Of a stretch of 27,471 nucleotides of DNA, positions 1,147-22,595 are shown one piece after another. The notes below the pieces were generated by a model. It searched no databases and was not told where the DNA came from. It was given only the letters and a program-made list of their open reading frames with translations. The stretch comes from an uncultured Candidatus Saccharibacteria bacterium. GTDB taxonomy: Bacteria; Patescibacteriota; Doudnabacteria; UBA920. The stretch lies in contig CAZZBG010000002.1 in the NCBI GenBank assembly GCA_964652865.1, positions 1 to 27,471 of the forward strand. The letters are read 5' to 3'. The position numbers and the translations under genes are program-made. Each line of letters starts with the position of its first letter. Position 1 is the stretch's first letter.

Positions 1147-2004
1147 ATGCTTAAAAATAAAAAGCGTATATTCGGTTTGTTTACTTCTTTACTTGCATTA
1201 ACTTTTTTGTTTCCTGGCGTGGGTAAGGCAGTTAGTATTGCCGGGGACTGTAAGGCGTCATTGTATTTTGCAGTGACTGAAACAAATGGTAAACAAATTA
1301 CAGAGCTGATTCCTGCCCAAATCGGATCACTTAGTGTTGTTTTGTACATGAAGGTAGATTTTAATGACGCTGCTAAGTGCGATACATCCACATGGTCTAG
1401 TGTTACAGCATTCCGTGGTTTTGACGCACTTGTGAAAGATGCAAATCAGTTTATTGGAAATGGTGTTATCACAGCAGTGAGTCCTACTCAATACGAAGTT
1501 AAGCAGACAATAACGACTAGTAATCTACCCGACACGCTTGGGGCAGTACCTAAGGCAGGGTCTAAGATACAGTTACGTGGGTTTATAAATCTTAGAGATG
1601 CAAGTTTGCGTGATAACTTTGTTTATAGCGCTACAAGCACAATCAGTGTGACTGGCAGTGCTCCTAGCGGAGCGCCTACTCCATCAGGGGCAACCGAAAC
1701 TCCATCTACAACCCCTTCTCCAACCTTTACGCCGGGGGTGATTGCCACAATCCAAAACCCGATTCCATTTAACTCACTTGGTGAATTGTTGGTCGCGGCG
1801 ATACGATTTATTTTGACGATGCTTGGTGCGCTTGCGGTGTTCTTTATTATTGTGGGAGCAGTTAAGATGGTAACTTCGCAGGGGAACGAAAAAAATATTA
1901 CGTCTGGTAAGCAAACTATTCAGTGGGCGGTTATTGGTTTAATAGTTGCGCTTATGTCGTTCTCGGTTATTGCGCTCGTCCAAAGTTTCTTGCAGAGACA
2001 ATAA
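1147..2004 (+). CDS. Pilin-fusion 1: signal peptide, unknown beta-rich domain, P/T/S linker, C-terminal TrbC/VirB2-like pilin
   Basis: Signal peptide MLKNKKRIFGLF...VGKA and a PTPSGATETPSTTPSPT linker. The C-terminal two-TM hairpin carries the loop GAVKMVTSQGNEKNITSGKQTIQWAVIG shared with the five neighbours. Confidence 0.85.
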   Translation: MLKNKKRIFGLFTSLLALTFLFPGVGKAVSIAGDCKASLYFAVTETNGKQITELIPAQIGSLSVVLYMKVDFNDAAKCDTSTWSSVTAFRGFDALVKDANQFIGNGVITAVSPTQYEVKQTITTSNLPDTLGAVPKAGSKIQLRGFINLRDASLRDNFVYSATSTISVTGSAPSGAPTPSGATETPSTTPSPTFTPGVIATIQNPIPFNSLGELLVAAIRFILTMLGALAVFFIIVGAVKMVTSQGNEKNITSGKQTIQWAVIGLIVALMSFSVIALVQSFLQRQ

Positions 2005-2044
2005 CGGTTTTTGGCAACATGCCTTTTACAAATTAAACAACCGT

Positions 2045-3001
2045 ATGAAGTTTGCACACATAAAACACGCTCACATATTTTTCGGTTCACTAGCTTTGCT
2101 CGTGCTCGTTTTGGTGCTCATGGATACCAACATTGCTCACGCTGCACTGGTTACGTGTGGTAATGGTGATGGGGGGAAGATTGAAGATAGTTGCAAGTTT
2201 GGAGATTTTTTTAACACTGCTATTGCGTTCATTGACTACATGCTTGCTGGTGCTGCTGTTGCGGCAGTGGGTGGTGTTGTGTGGGGTGGTGCGCTCATGG
2301 TCACTTCCGCTGGTAACCAAAGCAAGGTAGAAACTGGTAAGAAGTCTGTAAAGAATTCGGTGATTGGACTCTCCATTATCCTTGTCGCATTTTTGTTGGT
2401 TCGCAGTGTGTTTACTATATTAGGCTTTCAAGGGGGTGATGCACCGCTGTCTAACCCTGGCGGATTTACCGATCCAAATAGCGGTTTTCAACTGATAAAC
2501 CCTGGGGAAAATAGTGGCGGAACCAACCCTACACCAGCGCCATCTGGTACCACTGGCACTGTGCCTGCCCCATCTGGGTCGTCGCAGGAACTTGCGCAAA
2601 AGATATTGCAAACATTGGGTGCTGGTTGTTTTCGAGATTCCCATATTAGTGGGCTGGGTGTAGGAGATGGTGCAACAGCACGAGATAACATAGTAGATGT
2701 TGCTGCAGGGAGAGCTGCAAAGCGAAGTAGTTACGGTTCTACCACTATTGGGGGGTCTACGACGCTGGACCCACGTATGCTCCAAGCAATGCTCGCTATC
2801 TATGGTGCTGGCTACTCGAGCATATGTCCAATAACCGCTATTGCGGGTAGTGCACATAATACGCGAGCTTCAGCGCACTACTCTGGCAAAGCGTTTGATA
2901 TTGACCAAACTTTGAACGCCGCAAGTATTTTGGCGATTTGCAAACAGTATGGTGCAACTGGGGCGATTAACGAAGGAAATCATTTGCATTGCGAATGGTA
3001 A
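2045..3001 (+). CDS. Pilin-fusion 2: signal peptide, TrbC/VirB2-like pilin, linker, C-terminal M15-type (Hedgehog/DD-peptidase fold) Zn peptidase
   Basis: Start reassigned to ATG 2045, 40 nt after the upstream stop. Pilin loop GGALMVTSAGNQSKVETGKKSVKNSVIG. The C-terminus has SAHYSGKAFDI (H-x6-D) and NHLHCEW (HxH). Confidence 0.8.
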   Translation: MKFAHIKHAHIFFGSLALLVLVLVLMDTNIAHAALVTCGNGDGGKIEDSCKFGDFFNTAIAFIDYMLAGAAVAAVGGVVWGGALMVTSAGNQSKVETGKKSVKNSVIGLSIILVAFLLVRSVFTILGFQGGDAPLSNPGGFTDPNSGFQLINPGENSGGTNPTPAPSGTTGTVPAPSGSSQELAQKILQTLGAGCFRDSHISGLGVGDGATARDNIVDVAAGRAAKRSSYGSTTIGGSTTLDPRMLQAMLAIYGAGYSSICPITAIAGSAHNTRASAHYSGKAFDIDQTLNAASILAICKQYGATGAINEGNHLHCEW

Positions 3002-3019
3002 AACTATATTGAGAATTAT

Positions 3020-3772
3020 ATGAACCAAATCATCTTTTTTATTCGCAAGCATGCACTATTGGTAGGGGTTTTATTTCTCCTTTCTGCTGGTGCAGTTTAC
3101 GCACAAGCAACAAATCCGTTTGCGTGTCCGCAGTACCCAGAGCAAAAAGTTGGAAGTCGTGGTACGTGTGTGCAGCGCATTAAGTGGCACTTGAACAACA
3201 AACAAACTCCTTCCCCTGCATTTGATTTGGAAGGTGATACTGCGCCAGTGTTCGACGCAAAGACCTTACAGCAAGTGCAGAAATGGCAAAAAGATAAAGG
3301 TCTTAACTGTACCGAAGGGGTAGTAGGGCCTGAAACATGGAATTCGTTTGAACCAGGGCTTGGTATGACTGGCCCTTGTGTGGATGGAACAATTAAGACT
3401 GGCGGTAATTCTACCGGAACTACTGGTAACGCTGGATACAGCAACGACCTTACAAAAGAGTGTAAAGATCTGGAACAAAGTTTTACTGATTTTGGGGGCA
3501 GCGTCCCTGGGTCACTCGCGCTTAATTGTTATAGCCCAGGTCAAGGGTTAAACAAAATAATTCGACTTGCGTTTACGTTTGTTGGTATACTCGCTGTTCT
3601 GTTTATTGTGATTGGCGGGTATAAGTACATGACTGCGGCAGGGGACGACAAAAAAGCAGGTGCAGGTAAGAAAACAATTCAATGGGCACTTATTGGTTTA
3701 ATAGCCACACTGTTTGCGTATTCTATTGTCGCTATTGCAACTCGGTTTGCGACACAAAGCACGATTTTCTAG
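3020..3772 (+). CDS. Pilin-fusion 3: signal peptide, peptidoglycan-binding (PG_binding_1-like) domain, C-terminal TrbC/VirB2-like pilin
   Basis: KVGSRGTCVQRIKWHLN...FDAKTLQQVQKWQKDKGL...EGVVGPETWNSF fits the PG_binding_1 pattern. Pilin loop GGYKYMTAAGDDKKAGAGKKTIQWALIG. Confidence 0.85.
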   Translation: MNQIIFFIRKHALLVGVLFLLSAGAVYAQATNPFACPQYPEQKVGSRGTCVQRIKWHLNNKQTPSPAFDLEGDTAPVFDAKTLQQVQKWQKDKGLNCTEGVVGPETWNSFEPGLGMTGPCVDGTIKTGGNSTGTTGNAGYSNDLTKECKDLEQSFTDFGGSVPGSLALNCYSPGQGLNKIIRLAFTFVGILAVLFIVIGGYKYMTAAGDDKKAGAGKKTIQWALIGLIATLFAYSIVAIATRFATQSTIF

Positions 3773-3804
3773 GAAGCAGGAATTAGGTTCTAGGTGGTAG
3801 TAAA

Positions 3805-3845
3805 AACAAAGGTTACCTTCGTACTCTACGAAGGTAACCTTTGTT
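3805..3845. repeat. Perfect 19-bp inverted repeat with 3-nt loop
   Basis: AACAAAGGTTACCTTCGTA-CTC-TACGAAGGTAACCTTTGTT, 32 nt after the pilin-3 stop. Probably a terminator or mRNA stabiliser. Confidence 0.9.
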
Positions 3846-4177
3846 GTCAGAAGCACCAAACCACAAGCACGAAATAGCAAATAAATTCCAATAGTAAAAC
3901 TCCAAACAAATGCAATTCAGTTTTGAGTTTGCAGTTACAGTTTTACGTTTTGTCTTTTGAGTTTGCAGTTCTTTTGACATCAAGACGTTACGACATTAAG
4001 ACGTGAAGACTTATGGTTCTTTCGTTCGACGTTGCGACGTGAAGACTCTCTTGTCTTTCTCGTTTCCCCGCATTCTGCGGGACCCGCTTGAGCGGGCTCG
4101 CTACCCACCTCTTCGGTGGGTCGCCGAAGAGGCGACTAGTTACTCGTTACTTGCTGCCCTAGCGCAATTGCCACTAA

Positions 4178-4188
4178 TGTGGTATACT
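4178..4188 (+). promoter_or_regulatory. Extended -10 promoter for the stand-alone pilin
   Basis: TGTGG-TATACT about 55 nt upstream of the start. No good -35. Confidence 0.5.
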
Positions 4189-4243
4189 CAAAAAGTATTC
4201 ATGGCGTGGAGATTCCGCGCTTTAAGGAAGGGGGTGAATAGAT

Positions 4244-4639
4244 TTGAAACAAATGTTGAAGAATGTTAACTGGCTTGGTTGGGCTCAAGCTTTGCTTGTA
4301 TTTGCTCTTATCCTCGCTCCAGTTACTGTAAGTGCAGCTAAATTGACTGCTCCAAGCGGTCTTTGTGCCACTGGTTTGAATTGTGAAGACAACTTGTCTA
4401 TCAACGGTATTATCATCAGAATCATTAACTGGATTTTGGCGATTGTATTGGCTGTTGACGTGCTCATGATTATCATTGGTGGGTTCATGTACGTAACTTC
4501 TGCTGGTGACGAAGGTCGCGCAAAGAAGGGTCGTACAACCGTTGTCAACGCTATTATCGGACTTGTAATCATCATTTTGGCATATGTTATTGCCAACGTG
4601 GTTTCCAACTTCTTTAGTGCGGATAGACTCCAATCTTAA
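4244..4639 (+). CDS. Stand-alone TrbC/VirB2-like pilin (candidate major subunit)
   Basis: TTG start after a strong SD-like AAGGAAGGGGGTGA, signal peptide ending PVTVSA, a C-x5-C loop and the loop GGFMYVTSAGDEGRAKKGRTTVVNAIIG. No cargo domain. Confidence 0.9.
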   Translation: MKQMLKNVNWLGWAQALLVFALILAPVTVSAAKLTAPSGLCATGLNCEDNLSINGIIIRIINWILAIVLAVDVLMIIIGGFMYVTSAGDEGRAKKGRTTVVNAIIGLVIIILAYVIANVVSNFFSADRLQS

Positions 4640-4722
4640 CCGCTTTTCGCCTACACTGCGTCGTGTTACCTCTCTTCTAGAGCTTGGCTGCAGCCACTCG
4701 GCGCAGTGAAGGCGAACCGGTT
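4638..4722 (+). other. Multibranched RNA structure immediately after the stand-alone pilin stop
   Basis: Outer stem TTCGCCT/AGGCGAA plus CACTGCGTCG/CGGCGCAGTG, closed by AACCG/CGGTT. Inner hairpins CTCT-TCT-AGAG and the palindrome TGGCTGCAGCCA. Confidence 0.7.
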
Positions 4723-4807
4723 TCTTTAACAGAAAAATATACGCGGGATTTCTTCTAAGAAAATGTTAGTAGTACTGCCGTGTTTATTTTTCTAAACACA
4801 AATAGAT

Positions 4808-5644
4808 ATGCTTTTTAGAAATTTTAATTTTGGTTCATTGTCTCGGAGCTTCTTTGTAGCTCGGATTTTTTTTGTTTTACTCTTTGCAGTAGCGACTCCG
4901 CTGACAGCGTACGGGCAACAAAGCGCGAGTGATCCAGTGATCGTAGAAAGTCGTGCATGCCCACAAATTTCTTCTCCGGCAAACTCTTGCTTTAGTTTGT
5001 CGCAAATGAAGCCAAGCGAATACGTTGTGCTTGTGGTGAGTAATGTCTTCCAGTACAATACGCTGAAAGTGTTCCTAGACGGTTCTACTGAACTGCAACA
5101 ACAAAACTTTGTACGCAATGGAGGAAATTTAGCCACAGTTGTAGCTGCGTTACCACAAGATATAGAGCCTGGCTCTGCACACCAAGTTGCTGTAATAATT
5201 GATCAAGGAAATGTGCCGAGCGCACCAGTGAATCTGTCTATCCGAGGGGTGGCACCAAGCACTGCACCTACTGGTGGAGGGGGCGCATCGGGTGGTGGGA
5301 GCACCACGCCGAAGCCTACGGTAAACCCAAATGCTGGTGGCAGTGTGAAAGATGGTCTCAAAGGCATAGCGGGTGAGTTCCAGTATCAAGGTGAACTTGC
5401 CCAATCGCAAACCATTGGAGATGTGATTGTCGCAGTCATCAACGTTTTACTAGGGTTGCTCATGGCAATTTCTGTGCTCATGATAATTTTTGGTGGCTTT
5501 ACCTATGTCACCGCAGCAGGGGCAGAGGACAAAGCTAAGAAGGCTCGCCGGATTATTACCTATGCGGTAACTGGTATGATAATAGTAATACTATCTTACA
5601 TGCTGGTGTCTACTATAAGTAACGCGCTAGATGGTCAAATCTAA
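4808..5644 (+). CDS. Pilin-fusion 5: signal peptide, Ig/IPT-like domain, G/S/T/P linker, C-terminal TrbC/VirB2-like pilin
   Basis: Signal peptide ending PLTAYG, a beta-rich domain and linker STAPTGGGGASGGGSTTPKP. Loop GGFTYVTAAGAEDKAKKARRIITYAVTG. The Ig assignment is tentative. Confidence 0.85.
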   Translation: MLFRNFNFGSLSRSFFVARIFFVLLFAVATPLTAYGQQSASDPVIVESRACPQISSPANSCFSLSQMKPSEYVVLVVSNVFQYNTLKVFLDGSTELQQQNFVRNGGNLATVVAALPQDIEPGSAHQVAVIIDQGNVPSAPVNLSIRGVAPSTAPTGGGGASGGGSTTPKPTVNPNAGGSVKDGLKGIAGEFQYQGELAQSQTIGDVIVAVINVLLGLLMAISVLMIIFGGFTYVTAAGAEDKAKKARRIITYAVTGMIIVILSYMLVSTISNALDGQI

Positions 5645-5648
5645 TAAT

Positions 5649-6557
5649 ATGAAAACTATTAAATACTTATTTACCTATTTCTTCCTCGTGGCTTTCATTT
5701 CGTTAACGAGTTTTATTCCTAATTTTGTCTTAGCTGCGTTTGGTGATATTACAAATATTTATAGTTGCAAAACAATCAAACCTCCTTCAACTATTCCTGA
5801 AGAATGTTATCCAGGGATTACAGTAGATGATTCGTACATTCTTTTGTACGGTTCAGGGTTTAATCCAGAGAGTGATACAGTAACGATAGCAGATGTAAAT
5901 GTACCTATTATTAAGAATGGGTCGAATGGTGGCATGCTTGTCTTGGATATGCCAAACTCTCTGCGTGCTGTCGCCAAAAATTCTACAGGACAAGTTGTTC
6001 TCTTGGTGAAAGCTATGAGCGGTGATTTTATTGAAAAGTCTGTGTCTCTCCTTTGCGCCAATGAAGCATGTGCCGCCACAACTTCTCCTACCCCAATAAT
6101 TAGTTCAACACCGAATGCTTCGGTAACACCAAAGCCTTCCGGTGCTTCTCCGTCTCCAACGGGTAGTGGTAGCGCTACTCCTCCAACTCAGCCCATAGAG
6201 ACAGACTTACGCGGTGAGTGTCAGAAGCAGGGGTTGCAATACGACAATGCGAGCGGGTTGTGCTTGCCAACGAACCCGTACAAGGCCAGTGCAGATAGCT
6301 TGGCGGGCCAGACAACACTCGGTGGGCTCATTCGTCGAGTGCTGAATATCTTACTGACTTTGGCTGGGGTGGTCGCTGTGCTCATGATTATTTTGGGTGG
6401 GTACCAGTACGTTACCTCTCGTGGTGCAGAAGACCAAGCAAAGGCTGGTCGCAAGACAATTACTTACGCTGCTATTGGACTTATCGCTGTACTCTTGGCA
6501 TATATGCTGGTCACGGTTGTTACGAACTTTGCCACACAAGGCGTGTTGTTTAACTAA
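5649..6557 (+). CDS. Pilin-fusion 6: signal peptide, IPT/TIG-like domain, P/S/T linker, C-terminal TrbC/VirB2-like pilin
   Basis: Start reassigned to ATG 5649, 4 nt after the upstream stop. ILLYGSGFNP resembles the IPT/TIG GxxF strand. Loop GGYQYVTSRGAEDQAKAGRKTITYAAIG. Confidence 0.85.
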   Translation: MKTIKYLFTYFFLVAFISLTSFIPNFVLAAFGDITNIYSCKTIKPPSTIPEECYPGITVDDSYILLYGSGFNPESDTVTIADVNVPIIKNGSNGGMLVLDMPNSLRAVAKNSTGQVVLLVKAMSGDFIEKSVSLLCANEACAATTSPTPIISSTPNASVTPKPSGASPSPTGSGSATPPTQPIETDLRGECQKQGLQYDNASGLCLPTNPYKASADSLAGQTTLGGLIRRVLNILLTLAGVVAVLMIILGGYQYVTSRGAEDQAKAGRKTITYAAIGLIAVLLAYMLVTVVTNFATQGVLFN

Positions 6558-6573
6558 AATCTGTCGGGCATAT

Positions 6574-6608
6574 AACCCTCGATTCGCATAGAATCGAGGG
6601 TTTTTTTT
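6574..6608 (+). terminator. Rho-independent terminator closing the pilin array
   Basis: AACCCTCGATTC-GCATA-GAATCGAGGGTT followed by a T run. Confidence 0.9.
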
Positions 6609-22250: not shown

Positions 22251-22595
22251 ATGGTACACTATATTCCACGCTTCGGTGATTTTGTGTATATAGCATTTGA
22301 TCCACAGTCTGGCCATGAACAAAAAGGTAGGAGACCAGCTTTGGTTACGAGTAATAGCTTGTTCAACCAGAAGACTGGTATGGCTTTTGTTTGCCCAGTA
22401 ACAAGTACCGTTAGAGGTAACCCATTCCATTTGCCCATTCCCACTCAAAATTCTGTGACCGGTGTCGTTATGGTAGACCAGATAAAGTCAGTGGATTACG
22501 CATCACGAAATGTAGAGTTCATTGCACCAGCTCCAGAAATTCTGGTAGCAGATGTTGTATCATTATTAAACACGATTTTAGAAGAGCGTTTCTAG
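22251..22595 (+). CDS. mazF: PemK/MazF-family endoribonuclease toxin
   Basis: YIPRFGDFVYIAFDPQSGHEQKGRRPALV...VCPVTS...DQIKSVDY, directly behind mazE. Confidence 0.95.
   Translation: MVHYIPRFGDFVYIAFDPQSGHEQKGRRPALVTSNSLFNQKTGMAFVCPVTSTVRGNPFHLPIPTQNSVTGVVMVDQIKSVDYASRNVEFIAPAPEILVADVVSLLNTILEERF

What the first reader, a model, noticed from the sequence alone, without database searches (positions are those of the whole stretch)
2045..3001. Pilin fused to a putative peptidoglycan-cleaving M15 zinc peptidase
Seen: after the pilin and a PTPAPSG linker comes a domain of about 140 aa ending SAHYSGKAFDI...NHLHCEW. Established: H-x6-D plus a distal HxH is the Zn-ligand pattern of M15/Hedgehog-fold DD- and LD-peptidases that cut peptidoglycan stems. 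Inference: a wall-cutting enzyme tethered to a pilin could open the host sacculus at the contact site. It is the only member with reversed domain order.
Basis: partly seen in the sequence, partly recalled or inferred. Interest (0 to 1): 0.78.

Follow-up and report, generated by a model that had tools for sequence, protein, structure and literature searches.

The report
Pilin-anchored zinc cell-wall peptidase
An ultrasmall (Patescibacteria) bacterium encodes a secretion-system pilin whose outward-facing tail is an intact zinc peptidase of the Hedgehog/DD-peptidase fold, an optional and swappable wall-cutting tool that could show how these host-dependent bacteria get through a cell wall.

Summary
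Window 2045-3001 (+) encodes a 318-aa protein with four parts: signal peptide, VirB2-like T4SS pilin hairpin (Pfam PF18895, above cut-off), a disordered Pro/Gly/Ser/Thr linker of about 50 aa, and a 139-aa globular domain.

That domain misses Pfam's M15 cut-off, but three tests place it in the LAS (Hedgehog/DD-peptidase, M15A-like) fold:
- A family profile hits Sonic hedgehog N-domain (E 1e-4), aligning H271, H278, D285, H313 and H315 with Shh H135, H141, D148, H181 and H183.
- All nine solved chains with Z>=5 are LAS enzymes.
- An M15A-annotated AlphaFold cluster matches at TM 0.82.

The family is large (>1000 clusters) and is fused to peptidoglycan-binding, SLT, YkuD and amidase domains. About 20 of its top 150 representatives carry the pilin in front.

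Within the genus the domain is optional: five species have it, and four keep the pilin without it. It is also exchanged as a cassette: synonymous sites are saturated against a conserved pilin core.

Wall-cutting activity is well supported by inference. Whether the target is the host's wall or the cell's own wall is unresolved. This scan has found pilin-hydrolase fusions before on other DNA. I found none described in the papers searched.

The parts
2045..3001 (+). Whole gene (318 aa plus stop): signal peptide, VirB2-like pilin, linker, LAS zinc peptidase
   Evidence: Orthologues start at the same Met.
2045..2143 (+). Signal peptide, aa 1-33, with A-H-A before the predicted cleavage site
   Evidence: Hydrophobic stretch at aa 5-38 and helix 9-25. 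The cleavage site is my inference from the AxA rule.
2198..2419 (+). Pilin hairpin: helix aa 52-86, Lys-rich loop (4 K/R against 1 D/E), helix aa 92-125
   Evidence: PF18895 at E 1.3e-6, above cut-off. NF045849 pilin-like at E 2e-4. Hydropathy and loop charge. AF2 helices at pLDDT 70-84.
2429..2581 (+). Disordered Gly/Pro/Ser/Thr linker, aa 129-179, containing PTPAPSG
   Evidence: Composition. pLDDT below 50 for aa 129-172.
2582..2998 (+). LAS (Hedgehog/DD-peptidase, M15A-like) domain, aa 180-318
   Evidence: A3 profile match at exactly 2582-2998, E 1.4e-40. AF2 pLDDT 93.4, pTM 0.89. VIA-align: 1lbu Z 7.6, and every chain with Z>=5 is a LAS enzyme. AFDB M15A cluster at TM 0.82, E 2e-11.
2855..2857 (+). 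His271, invariant, aligned with Shh His135 (candidate catalytic residue)
2876..2899 (+). H278-x6-D285, the first two predicted zinc ligands (aligned with Shh H141 and D148)
   Evidence: HMM alignments to Shh. Invariant in 59 to 66 homologues.
2981..2989 (+). H313-x-H315: H315 is the predicted third zinc ligand (Shh H183) and H313 a catalytic helper (Shh H181)
   Evidence: H313 is replaced by Asp or Ser in the second allele type: P0004, P0005, G003, G001.
1147..6557 (+). Array of six co-oriented T4SS_pilin genes in which this gene is second. The other five have the pilin at the C-terminus.
   Evidence: Terminator-like hairpin at 6574-6602 after the last gene.
3020..3772 (+). Next gene, 18 nt downstream: pilin with an N-terminal PG_binding_1 domain
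   Evidence: PF01471 at E 2.9e-6 and PF18895 at E 3.7e-10.

Best explanation
The gene makes a Sec-exported protein that is held in the membrane, or possibly built into a pilus, by a VirB2-like two-helix pilin hairpin. Both ends of the hairpin face outward, so the C-terminal domain hangs outside the cell on a flexible tether of about 50 residues. That domain is a zinc metallopeptidase of the LAS / Hedgehog-DD-peptidase (M15A-like) fold. Its predicted zinc ligands are H278, D285 and H315, with H271 and H313 as helpers, and it cuts peptide stems or cross-links of peptidoglycan. It is an optional, exchangeable tool of the type IV secretion pilin array. I favour the reading that it acts on the wall the apparatus meets, which is the host's, and that different alleles suit different wall chemistries. 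Shown here: domain architecture, topology logic, fold class, conserved active-site residues, association of the family with cell-wall domains, optional presence in the genus, and cassette replacement under purifying selection. Inferred: zinc binding, peptidoglycan cleavage, which bond is cut, incorporation into a pilus, and the host wall as target.
For: - Pilin: PF18895 above cut-off. The hairpin has a positively charged loop, which puts both termini outside.
- Fold: the family profile hits Shh-N at E 1e-4, then 1lbu, ChiX and T5-type M15C enzymes. The model has pLDDT 93. All nine of 48,161 chains with Z>=5 are LAS enzymes. An AFDB 'Peptidase M15A C-terminal' cluster matches at TM 0.82, E 2e-11.
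- Wall link: among 66 relatives, 15 carry PG_binding_1 and 13 carry PG_binding_3, and others carry SLT, YkuD, Amidase_2 or VanY. Three-domain pilin + this domain + SLT proteins exist.
- The genome has VirB4-like, VirD4-like and a weak VirB6-like gene.
- Accessory: four congeners keep the orthologous pilin (157-185 aa) but lack the domain anywhere in their genomes. It was found in only 11 of 401 sampled genomes of the phylum. A pilin-SLT gene is present in all nine genomes of the genus searched and could do the housekeeping wall opening.
- Cassette: against the nearest congener the pilin is 97% identical but the peptidase only 69%. The peptidase pS is 0.78 (saturated) against a background dS of 0.30 for ftsH, with dN 0.24.
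- All exposed cargo domains of the array diverge while the pilin cores stay 88-98% identical.
Against: - No enzymatic or zinc-binding data exist.
- Pfam M15_3 is below its cut-off, and Foldseek against PDB found nothing significant.
- Nothing shows that this pilin polymerises. A tether of about 50 residues from the membrane could reach only the cell's own wall.
- Every characterised T4SS-linked hydrolase acts on the producer's own wall.
- The second allele type lacks the first His of HxH, so some alleles may be weakened or non-catalytic.
- Linkage to virB4 cannot be seen in this fragmented assembly.
Confidence: 0.45

Rival explanations
1. Own-wall opener (VirB1-like). The pilin hairpin only anchors and addresses the peptidase to the T4SS or pilus assembly site. 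There it cuts the bacterium's own peptidoglycan so that the machine or pilus can pass, as PrgK, TraG (pIP501) and CwlT do in Gram-positive conjugation systems.
For: Membrane anchor plus a short tether. Most Patescibacteria with VirB2-like pilins lack a recognisable VirB1 (PMC12102498), which leaves a gap that such fusions could fill. The same genome has a pilin-SLT fusion next to an M23 peptidase. Pilin + peptidase + SLT proteins mimic the two-enzyme VirB1-class hydrolases.
Against: Four of nine genomes in the genus lack the domain completely while keeping the pilin. It is rare in the phylum, 11 of 401 genomes. Allele replacement between near-identical pilins is not expected for an enzyme that works on one conserved own wall. 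The gene is not seen next to virB4 in this assembly, which is fragmented, or within 5 kb upstream in the nearest relative.
Confidence: 0.33
2. Non-catalytic wall-binding module. Like the Hedgehog ligand domain, the LAS fold is used here to bind a stem peptide and not to cleave it, so the protein is an adhesin of the pilin array.
For: Array neighbours carry binding-type cargo such as PG_binding_1. The second allele type replaces the first His of HxH with Asp or Ser. The best solved-structure sequence match is Shh-N, whose peptidase activity is debated (PMC6027127).
Against: In this window's protein all five histidine and aspartate positions are intact, and they are invariant or nearly so across the family. 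The three ligand positions are kept in both alleles. Relatives are fused to other wall-cleaving enzymes.
Confidence: 0.1
3. General cell-wall remodelling enzyme, for growth or daughter-cell separation. It merely uses a pilin-type hairpin as a membrane anchor and has no link to type IV secretion.
For: The domain family is widespread outside pilin contexts, with PG_binding, fn3 and YkuD partners. No T4SS gene lies next to it in this contig.
Against: It lies second in a six-gene pilin array conserved in order in the nearest relative. The pilin-peptidase association recurs and is clustered on the domain tree: 7 label changes against 20 expected, reached by 0 of 500 shuffles. It is dispensable in congeners.
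Confidence: 0.1
4. The motif is a chance resemblance and the domain is not a LAS peptidase.
For: Pfam M15_3 is below threshold. Foldseek against PDB gives E >= 0.34. All VIA Z scores are below 8.
Against: Three independent routes agree: the sequence profile to Shh and 1lbu, the exclusive LAS content of the top structural hits, and the AFDB M15A cluster at TM 0.82. All weak Pfam hits of family members also fall in the same group of families: M15_3, M15_4, HH_signal and M74.
Confidence: 0.02

Closest known systems
VirB2-like pilin arrays of Patescibacteria (Pfam PF18895). Described by Quinonero-Coronel et al. 2025 (PMC12102498); the array is essential in Ca. Southlakia epibionticum (Wang et al. 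2023, PMC10633639).
   Same: Tandem array of divergent T4SS_pilin genes in a genome of about 0.9 Mb, with signal peptide plus two-helix hairpin. VirB4-like and VirD4-like genes are also present in the genome.
   Different: Those papers describe pilins as such. In the text I searched they mention no enzymatic domain fused to a pilin. Here the pilin carries a C-terminal zinc peptidase.
Membrane-anchored VirB1-class hydrolases of Gram-positive T4SS: PrgK (pCF10), TraG (pIP501) and CwlT (ICEBs1)
   Same: N-terminal membrane anchor followed by extracytoplasmic peptidoglycan hydrolase domain(s), associated with a monoderm-type T4SS. The bifunctional sugar-cutter plus peptide-cutter design is mirrored by the pilin + peptidase + SLT relatives.
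   Different: The anchor is a complete VirB2-like pilin hairpin, not a single helix. The peptidase is a LAS zinc enzyme, not CHAP, NlpC/P60 or LytM. The gene is optional within the genus, and adjacency to virB4 is not shown.
Streptomyces albus G zinc D-Ala-D-Ala carboxypeptidase (PDB 1lbu, MEROPS M15A)
   Same: Best structural match: Z 7.6 over 102 residues. Also a profile hit at E 0.055. It has the same H-x6-D plus H-x-H metal site. Like many relatives of this family, 1lbu pairs the catalytic domain with a PG_binding_1-type domain (that point about 1lbu is my recollection).
   Different: Only about 15% identity. The bond specificity of the present family is unknown. Here the wall-binding domain sits on the neighbouring pilin gene and not in the same chain.
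Hedgehog N-terminal signalling domain and the bacterial Hh/DD-peptidases (Roelink 2018, PMC6027127)
   Same: Best sequence match among solved structures, E 1e-4. It is a core of about 60 residues that aligns H271, H278, D285, H313 and H315 with Shh H135, H141, D148, H181 and H183.
   Different: The bacterial Hh proteins of that paper are more than 50% identical to ShhN over about 145 residues and keep its Ca sites and E177. This family matches only around the metal site, so it is a separate branch of the same fold.
Pfam PF08291 Peptidase_M15_3 (InterPro 'Peptidase M15A, C-terminal'), including phage L-Ala-D-Glu endolysins
   Same: This is the most frequent weak Pfam hit of family members. AFDB neighbours carry this annotation.
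   Different: The score is 13.4 to 15.5 bits against a gathering cut-off of 23.2, so the window's protein is not a member by Pfam's own rule.

Membership tests
T4SS_pilin (PF18895, VirB2-like pilins) | Profile match above the curated cut-off | tested here: met
   28.8 bits against 26.6, E 1.3e-6, aa 70-120. An HMM built from the six paralogues also finds it.
T4SS_pilin (PF18895, VirB2-like pilins) | Signal peptide plus two hydrophobic helices joined by a short basic loop | tested here: met
   Hydropathy and loop charge. AF2 helices 52-86 and 92-125.
T4SS_pilin (PF18895, VirB2-like pilins) | A T4SS assembly machine in the same genome | tested here: inconclusive
   VirB4-like (P-loop_TraG, E 1.8e-23), VirD4-like, and TrbL/VirB6-like below cut-off, all on other contigs. 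PF03135 gave nothing. Linkage is unknown because the assembly is fragmented.
T4SS_pilin (PF18895, VirB2-like pilins) | Polymerises into a pilus | not testable with these tools
   Needs microscopy or biochemistry.
LAS / Hedgehog-DD-peptidase fold (MEROPS M15 and relatives) | H-x(3-6)-D and H-x-H metal-site motifs, conserved across homologues | tested here: met
   H278-x6-D285 and H313-x-H315. H278, D285 and H315 are invariant, and H313 is at least 90% conserved.
LAS / Hedgehog-DD-peptidase fold (MEROPS M15 and relatives) | The fold itself | tested here: met
   Model pLDDT 93.4. The top nine solved chains are all LAS, at Z 5.2 to 7.6. AFDB M15A cluster at TM 0.82. Caveat: Foldseek against PDB was not significant.
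LAS / Hedgehog-DD-peptidase fold (MEROPS M15 and relatives) | Zinc binding and peptidoglycan peptidase activity | not testable with these tools
   Needs purified protein, metal analysis and muropeptide LC-MS.
Pfam Peptidase_M15_3 (PF08291) | Score at or above the gathering cut-off of 23.2 bits | tested here: not met
   13.4 bits for the whole protein and 15.5 bits for the domain alone.
Bacterial Hedgehog-like proteins (bacHh, Roelink 2018) | More than 50% identity to ShhN over about 145 aa, with its Ca sites and E177 retained | tested here: not met
   Only a core of about 60 residues aligns, at E 1e-4. The definition is taken from PMC6027127.
VirB1-class T4SS wall hydrolases | Peptidoglycan hydrolase encoded with, and required by, a T4SS | tested here: inconclusive
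   A hydrolase-type domain is present, but no virB4 lies on this contig. The domain is absent from four congeners. Requirement is not testable here.

The most novel reading that the evidence does not exclude
The peptidase-pilin is a minor subunit built into or onto a type IV secretion pilus and digests the host's peptidoglycan at the contact point. Its alleles, exchanged as cassettes between near-identical pilin cores, are matched to host wall chemotypes and therefore act as host-range determinants of these epibionts.
Probability: 0.3. Interest if true: 0.85.

Novelty: new variant of a known kind. Interest (0 to 1): 0.58.

Why it matters
The type IV secretion system and its pilin array are essential in the one Patescibacterium where this has been tested genetically. 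Their role is unknown, and most of these genomes lack a recognisable VirB1 wall hydrolase (PMC10633639, PMC11665869, PMC12102498). A pilin that itself carries a wall-cutting enzyme offers a concrete, testable answer to how the apparatus crosses a wall, either the cell's own or the host's. Its optional, cassette-like behaviour suggests a link to host specificity. The domain also defines a large unnamed branch of the Hedgehog/DD-peptidase fold.

Tried and rejected
- Single-sequence phmmer of the domain against PDB found only chance hits, E >= 0.39.
- Foldseek of the model against PDB found nothing below E 0.34. The fold assignment rests on the exhaustive VIA-align search, AFDB clusters and profile hits.
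- Pfam and NCBIfam gave no above-threshold name for the domain.
- I tried to show that the middle domain of the second pilin-enzyme (contig C21, P0160 aa 140-300) is also a LAS peptidase. hhalign against the family profile gave E 0.59. PDB searches found nothing. ESM-feature neighbours include some M15_3 and Hedgehog clusters, but at 0.85 to 0.88, which is a lead only. This claim is not made.
- PF03135 (VirB4) found nothing in the genome. A VirB4-like ATPase was found through AAA_10 and P-loop_TraG instead.
- The promoter and terminator scan found no more sites than shuffled sequence, so the operon structure is not established.
- No RNA run holding this DNA turned up, only DNA metagenomes from wastewater and freshwater.
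- Complex prediction was not used. No binding claim is made that it could decide.
- The careful tree search did not finish. The quick tree (SH-aLRT only) is what one search reports.

Full report
WHAT IS THERE. The window is one whole contig (C2) of an 884-kb, 124-contig, 91%-complete genome. Its size, its housekeeping content (FtsH, RNase III, SMC, S16, TrmD, L19, RNase Y, NusA, ClpP) and its pilin content are typical of Patescibacteria (CPR). The DNA comes from wastewater and freshwater metagenomes. The nearest relative's public record is titled 'uncultured Candidatus Saccharibacteria bacterium'. An earlier AI note says Doudnabacteria, which I did not check.

Positions 1147-6557 hold six co-oriented genes that each match Pfam PF18895 T4SS_pilin above its cut-off. 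The finding is the second of them, at 2045-3001, encoding 318 aa.

ANATOMY.
- aa 1-33 are a signal peptide with A-H-A before the predicted cut.
- aa 34-50 hold two Cys residues, at positions 38 and 50.
- aa 52-86 and 92-125 are two long hydrophobic helices joined by a Lys-rich loop (4 K/R against 1 D/E). This is the VirB2-type hairpin.
- By the positive-inside rule the loop is cytoplasmic and both ends of the hairpin face outward. That is my inference.
- aa 129-179 are a Gly/Pro/Ser/Thr linker that contains PTPAPSG and is disordered in the model.
- aa 180-318 fold into a compact alpha/beta domain (pLDDT 93.4, pTM 0.89 with a 59-sequence alignment).
- The other five array members have the opposite order: cargo first, pilin last.

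THE DOMAIN IS A LAS (HEDGEHOG/DD-PEPTIDASE) ZINC PEPTIDASE.
- Pfam gives only a sub-threshold Peptidase_M15_3 hit: E 0.086, 13.4 bits against 23.2.
- A profile of eight homologues finds a large family among 1.84 billion representatives: 1024 proteins at E <= 1e-3 and 552 at E <= 1e-10. The domain is about 145 aa and mostly C-terminal.
- The family profile matches Sonic and Indian hedgehog N-domains best among solved structures (E 1e-4). The next matches are the Streptomyces albus Zn DD-carboxypeptidase 1lbu (0.055), ChiX and T5-type L-Ala-D-Glu peptidases.
- The alignment places H271, H278, D285, H313 and H315 on Shh H135, H141, D148, H181 and H183.
- H271, S276, H278, Y279, G281, D285 and H315 are invariant in 59 to 66 homologues, and H313 is at least 90% conserved.
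- Foldseek against PDB was uninformative.
- The exhaustive VIA-align search of 48,161 chains gave nine chains with Z>=5, and all nine are LAS enzymes: 1lbu 7.6, VldE 6.7, Hedgehog 6.2, two ShhN chains at 6.1 and 6.0, LysB4 5.6, VanXYg 5.4, DacB 5.2 and Ply500 5.2. VanX, T5 endolysin and MepA follow further down. No single Z is high, but an all-LAS top is not a chance outcome.
- AlphaFold DB clusters give TM 0.82, E 2e-11 to a 'Peptidase M15A C-terminal domain' protein.
- The weak Pfam hits of family members all fall in M15_3, M15_4, HH_signal and M74.

LINK TO PEPTIDOGLYCAN. Among 66 relatives, 15 carry PG_binding_1 and 13 carry PG_binding_3. Others carry SLT, YkuD L,D-transpeptidase, Amidase_2, VanY or GH46. 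Several are pilin + this domain + SLT lytic transglycosylase: P0089, P0106 and P0131. The next gene in the window is a pilin with PG_binding_1.

THE FUSION RECURS.
- About 20 of the 150 best representatives have a pilin hairpin in front of the domain.
- On a quick tree the pilin label is clustered: 7 changes against 20 in shuffles, reached by 0 of 500. Well-supported branches still force at least two changes, so the association was made or lost more than once.
- In 401 genomes sampled across the phylum the domain was found in 11. Four of those, in three different families, have the pilin fused.
- The same genome has a seventh pilin gene on contig C21: pilin, then an unassigned middle domain, then SLT (E 1.7e-19). 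It lies next to an M23 peptidase.
- Pilin-first genes related to that one were found in all nine genomes of the genus searched, often as two genes.

OPTIONAL AND EXCHANGED AS A CASSETTE.
- In the genus, four further species (G001, G003, G005, G006) have the full fusion.
- Four others (G002, G004, G007, G008) keep the orthologous pilin as a 157- to 185-aa protein that ends within the linker. The domain was not found anywhere in their genomes with the profile that scores 1.4e-40 on this genome.
- Identities are mosaic. P0001 against P0004 and G003 is 97% in the pilin but 69-71% in the peptidase. P0001 against P0002 is 72% in the pilin and 82% in the peptidase. P0002 against P0005 is 98% in the pilin and 66% in the peptidase.
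- Against the nearest congener, ftsH has dS 0.30. The pilin part of this gene has dS 0.45. The peptidase part has pS 0.78 (saturated) with dN 0.24.
- This pattern means replacement by an old, divergent allele that is itself under purifying selection. It does not indicate fast adaptive change in place.
- The same holds for the cargo parts of three of the four other cargo-carrying array genes (p1, p3, p6), while their pilin cores stay 88-98% identical at the DNA level; the cargo of p5 is little diverged.
- The second allele type has Asp or Ser in place of H313.

MECHANISM. Architecture, outward topology, fold class, intact site, wall-related relatives, dispensability and cassette behaviour are shown. 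Zn-dependent cleavage of peptidoglycan peptides outside the membrane, tethered to a T4SS pilin module, is inferred.

Two targets are possible. The literature precedent is the producer's own wall: VirB1-class enzymes such as PrgK, TraG and CwlT, as summarised in PMC12102498. That paper also notes that most Patescibacteria with VirB2-like pilins lack VirB1.

The host wall is slightly favoured here for three reasons.
- The domain is optional in the genus, while a pilin-SLT gene is present in every genome of the genus searched.
- It sits among hypervariable exposed cargo domains.
- Its alleles are swapped between near-identical pilins.

I put the host-directed reading at about 0.45 and the own-wall reading at about 0.33. 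Display on a pilus is plausible because C-terminal additions to F-pilin are tolerated and exposed. That point is my recollection and was not checked here.

KNOWN OR NEW. Pilin arrays in Patescibacteria are published (PMC12102498, PMC10633639, PMC12857230), as is the Hedgehog/DD-peptidase family (PMC6027127). None of the papers I could search mentions a pilin fused to a wall hydrolase. The library is incomplete, so this is not proof of novelty.

Earlier notes of this scan report the same kind of fusion, both M15-type and SLT-type, in many other genomes. They include a cassette-exchange reading. My results were obtained before reading those notes, and they agree.

Noticed in passing
Genome contig C21 = L002:2647-4113 (-), with its neighbour at L002:4141-5430 (-): A second pilin-first gene (488 aa): T4SS_pilin, then an unassigned 150-aa Cys-rich middle domain with a LAS-like H..H..D / HxH pattern that no test supported, then SLT lytic transglycosylase. 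It lies next to a coiled-coil M23 peptidase. In congeners it is often split into pilin+middle-domain and pilin+SLT genes.
   Followed up: partly
window 1147-6557 against L016:5398-10776: Across the array the pilin cores are 88-98% identical in DNA to the nearest congener. Most cargo domains are far more diverged: p1, the peptidase of p2, p3 and p6 show 43-74% identity and saturated or near-saturated synonymous sites. The cargo of p5 is much less diverged (82-99%, dS 0.34). The ftsH background is dS 0.30. This suggests cassette exchange with the pilin cores acting as recombination anchors.
   Followed up: partly
Model m051515e797f4 (window 2552-2998) against AFDB clusters: Close fold neighbours (TM 0.74-0.80, 23-31% identity) include accessions K1QWZ3, V4A7F3 and A0A2C9KIF9. 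From memory these look like mollusc proteins, but the tool hides organisms. Separately, the ESM Atlas search listed a mollusc-rich cluster as nearest to the C21 middle domain. This branch of the Hedgehog/DD-peptidase fold may have animal members.
   Followed up: no
L013 (G007:C7), ORF 1465-1938: In four congeners the orthologous pilin ends within the Gly/Pro-rich linker (157-185 aa). The gene order of the first two array members is also swapped relative to this window.
   Followed up: partly
window 6574-6602 (+): The only strong terminator-like hairpin in the array region (12-bp stem plus T run) lies just after the sixth pilin gene. This is compatible with the array ending one transcription unit there.
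   Followed up: no
Genome contigs C50, C22, C1: A VirB4-like ATPase sits on a 5.6-kb contig, and a TrbL/VirB6-like gene runs off the end of C22. A VirD4-like coupling protein is on C1. The T4SS genes are therefore present but their linkage to the pilin array is lost in the assembly.
   Followed up: partly
window 22251-22595 (+): A MazF/PemK-type toxin gene lies directly upstream of a YmdB-like phosphoesterase gene. No antitoxin was looked for.
   Followed up: no
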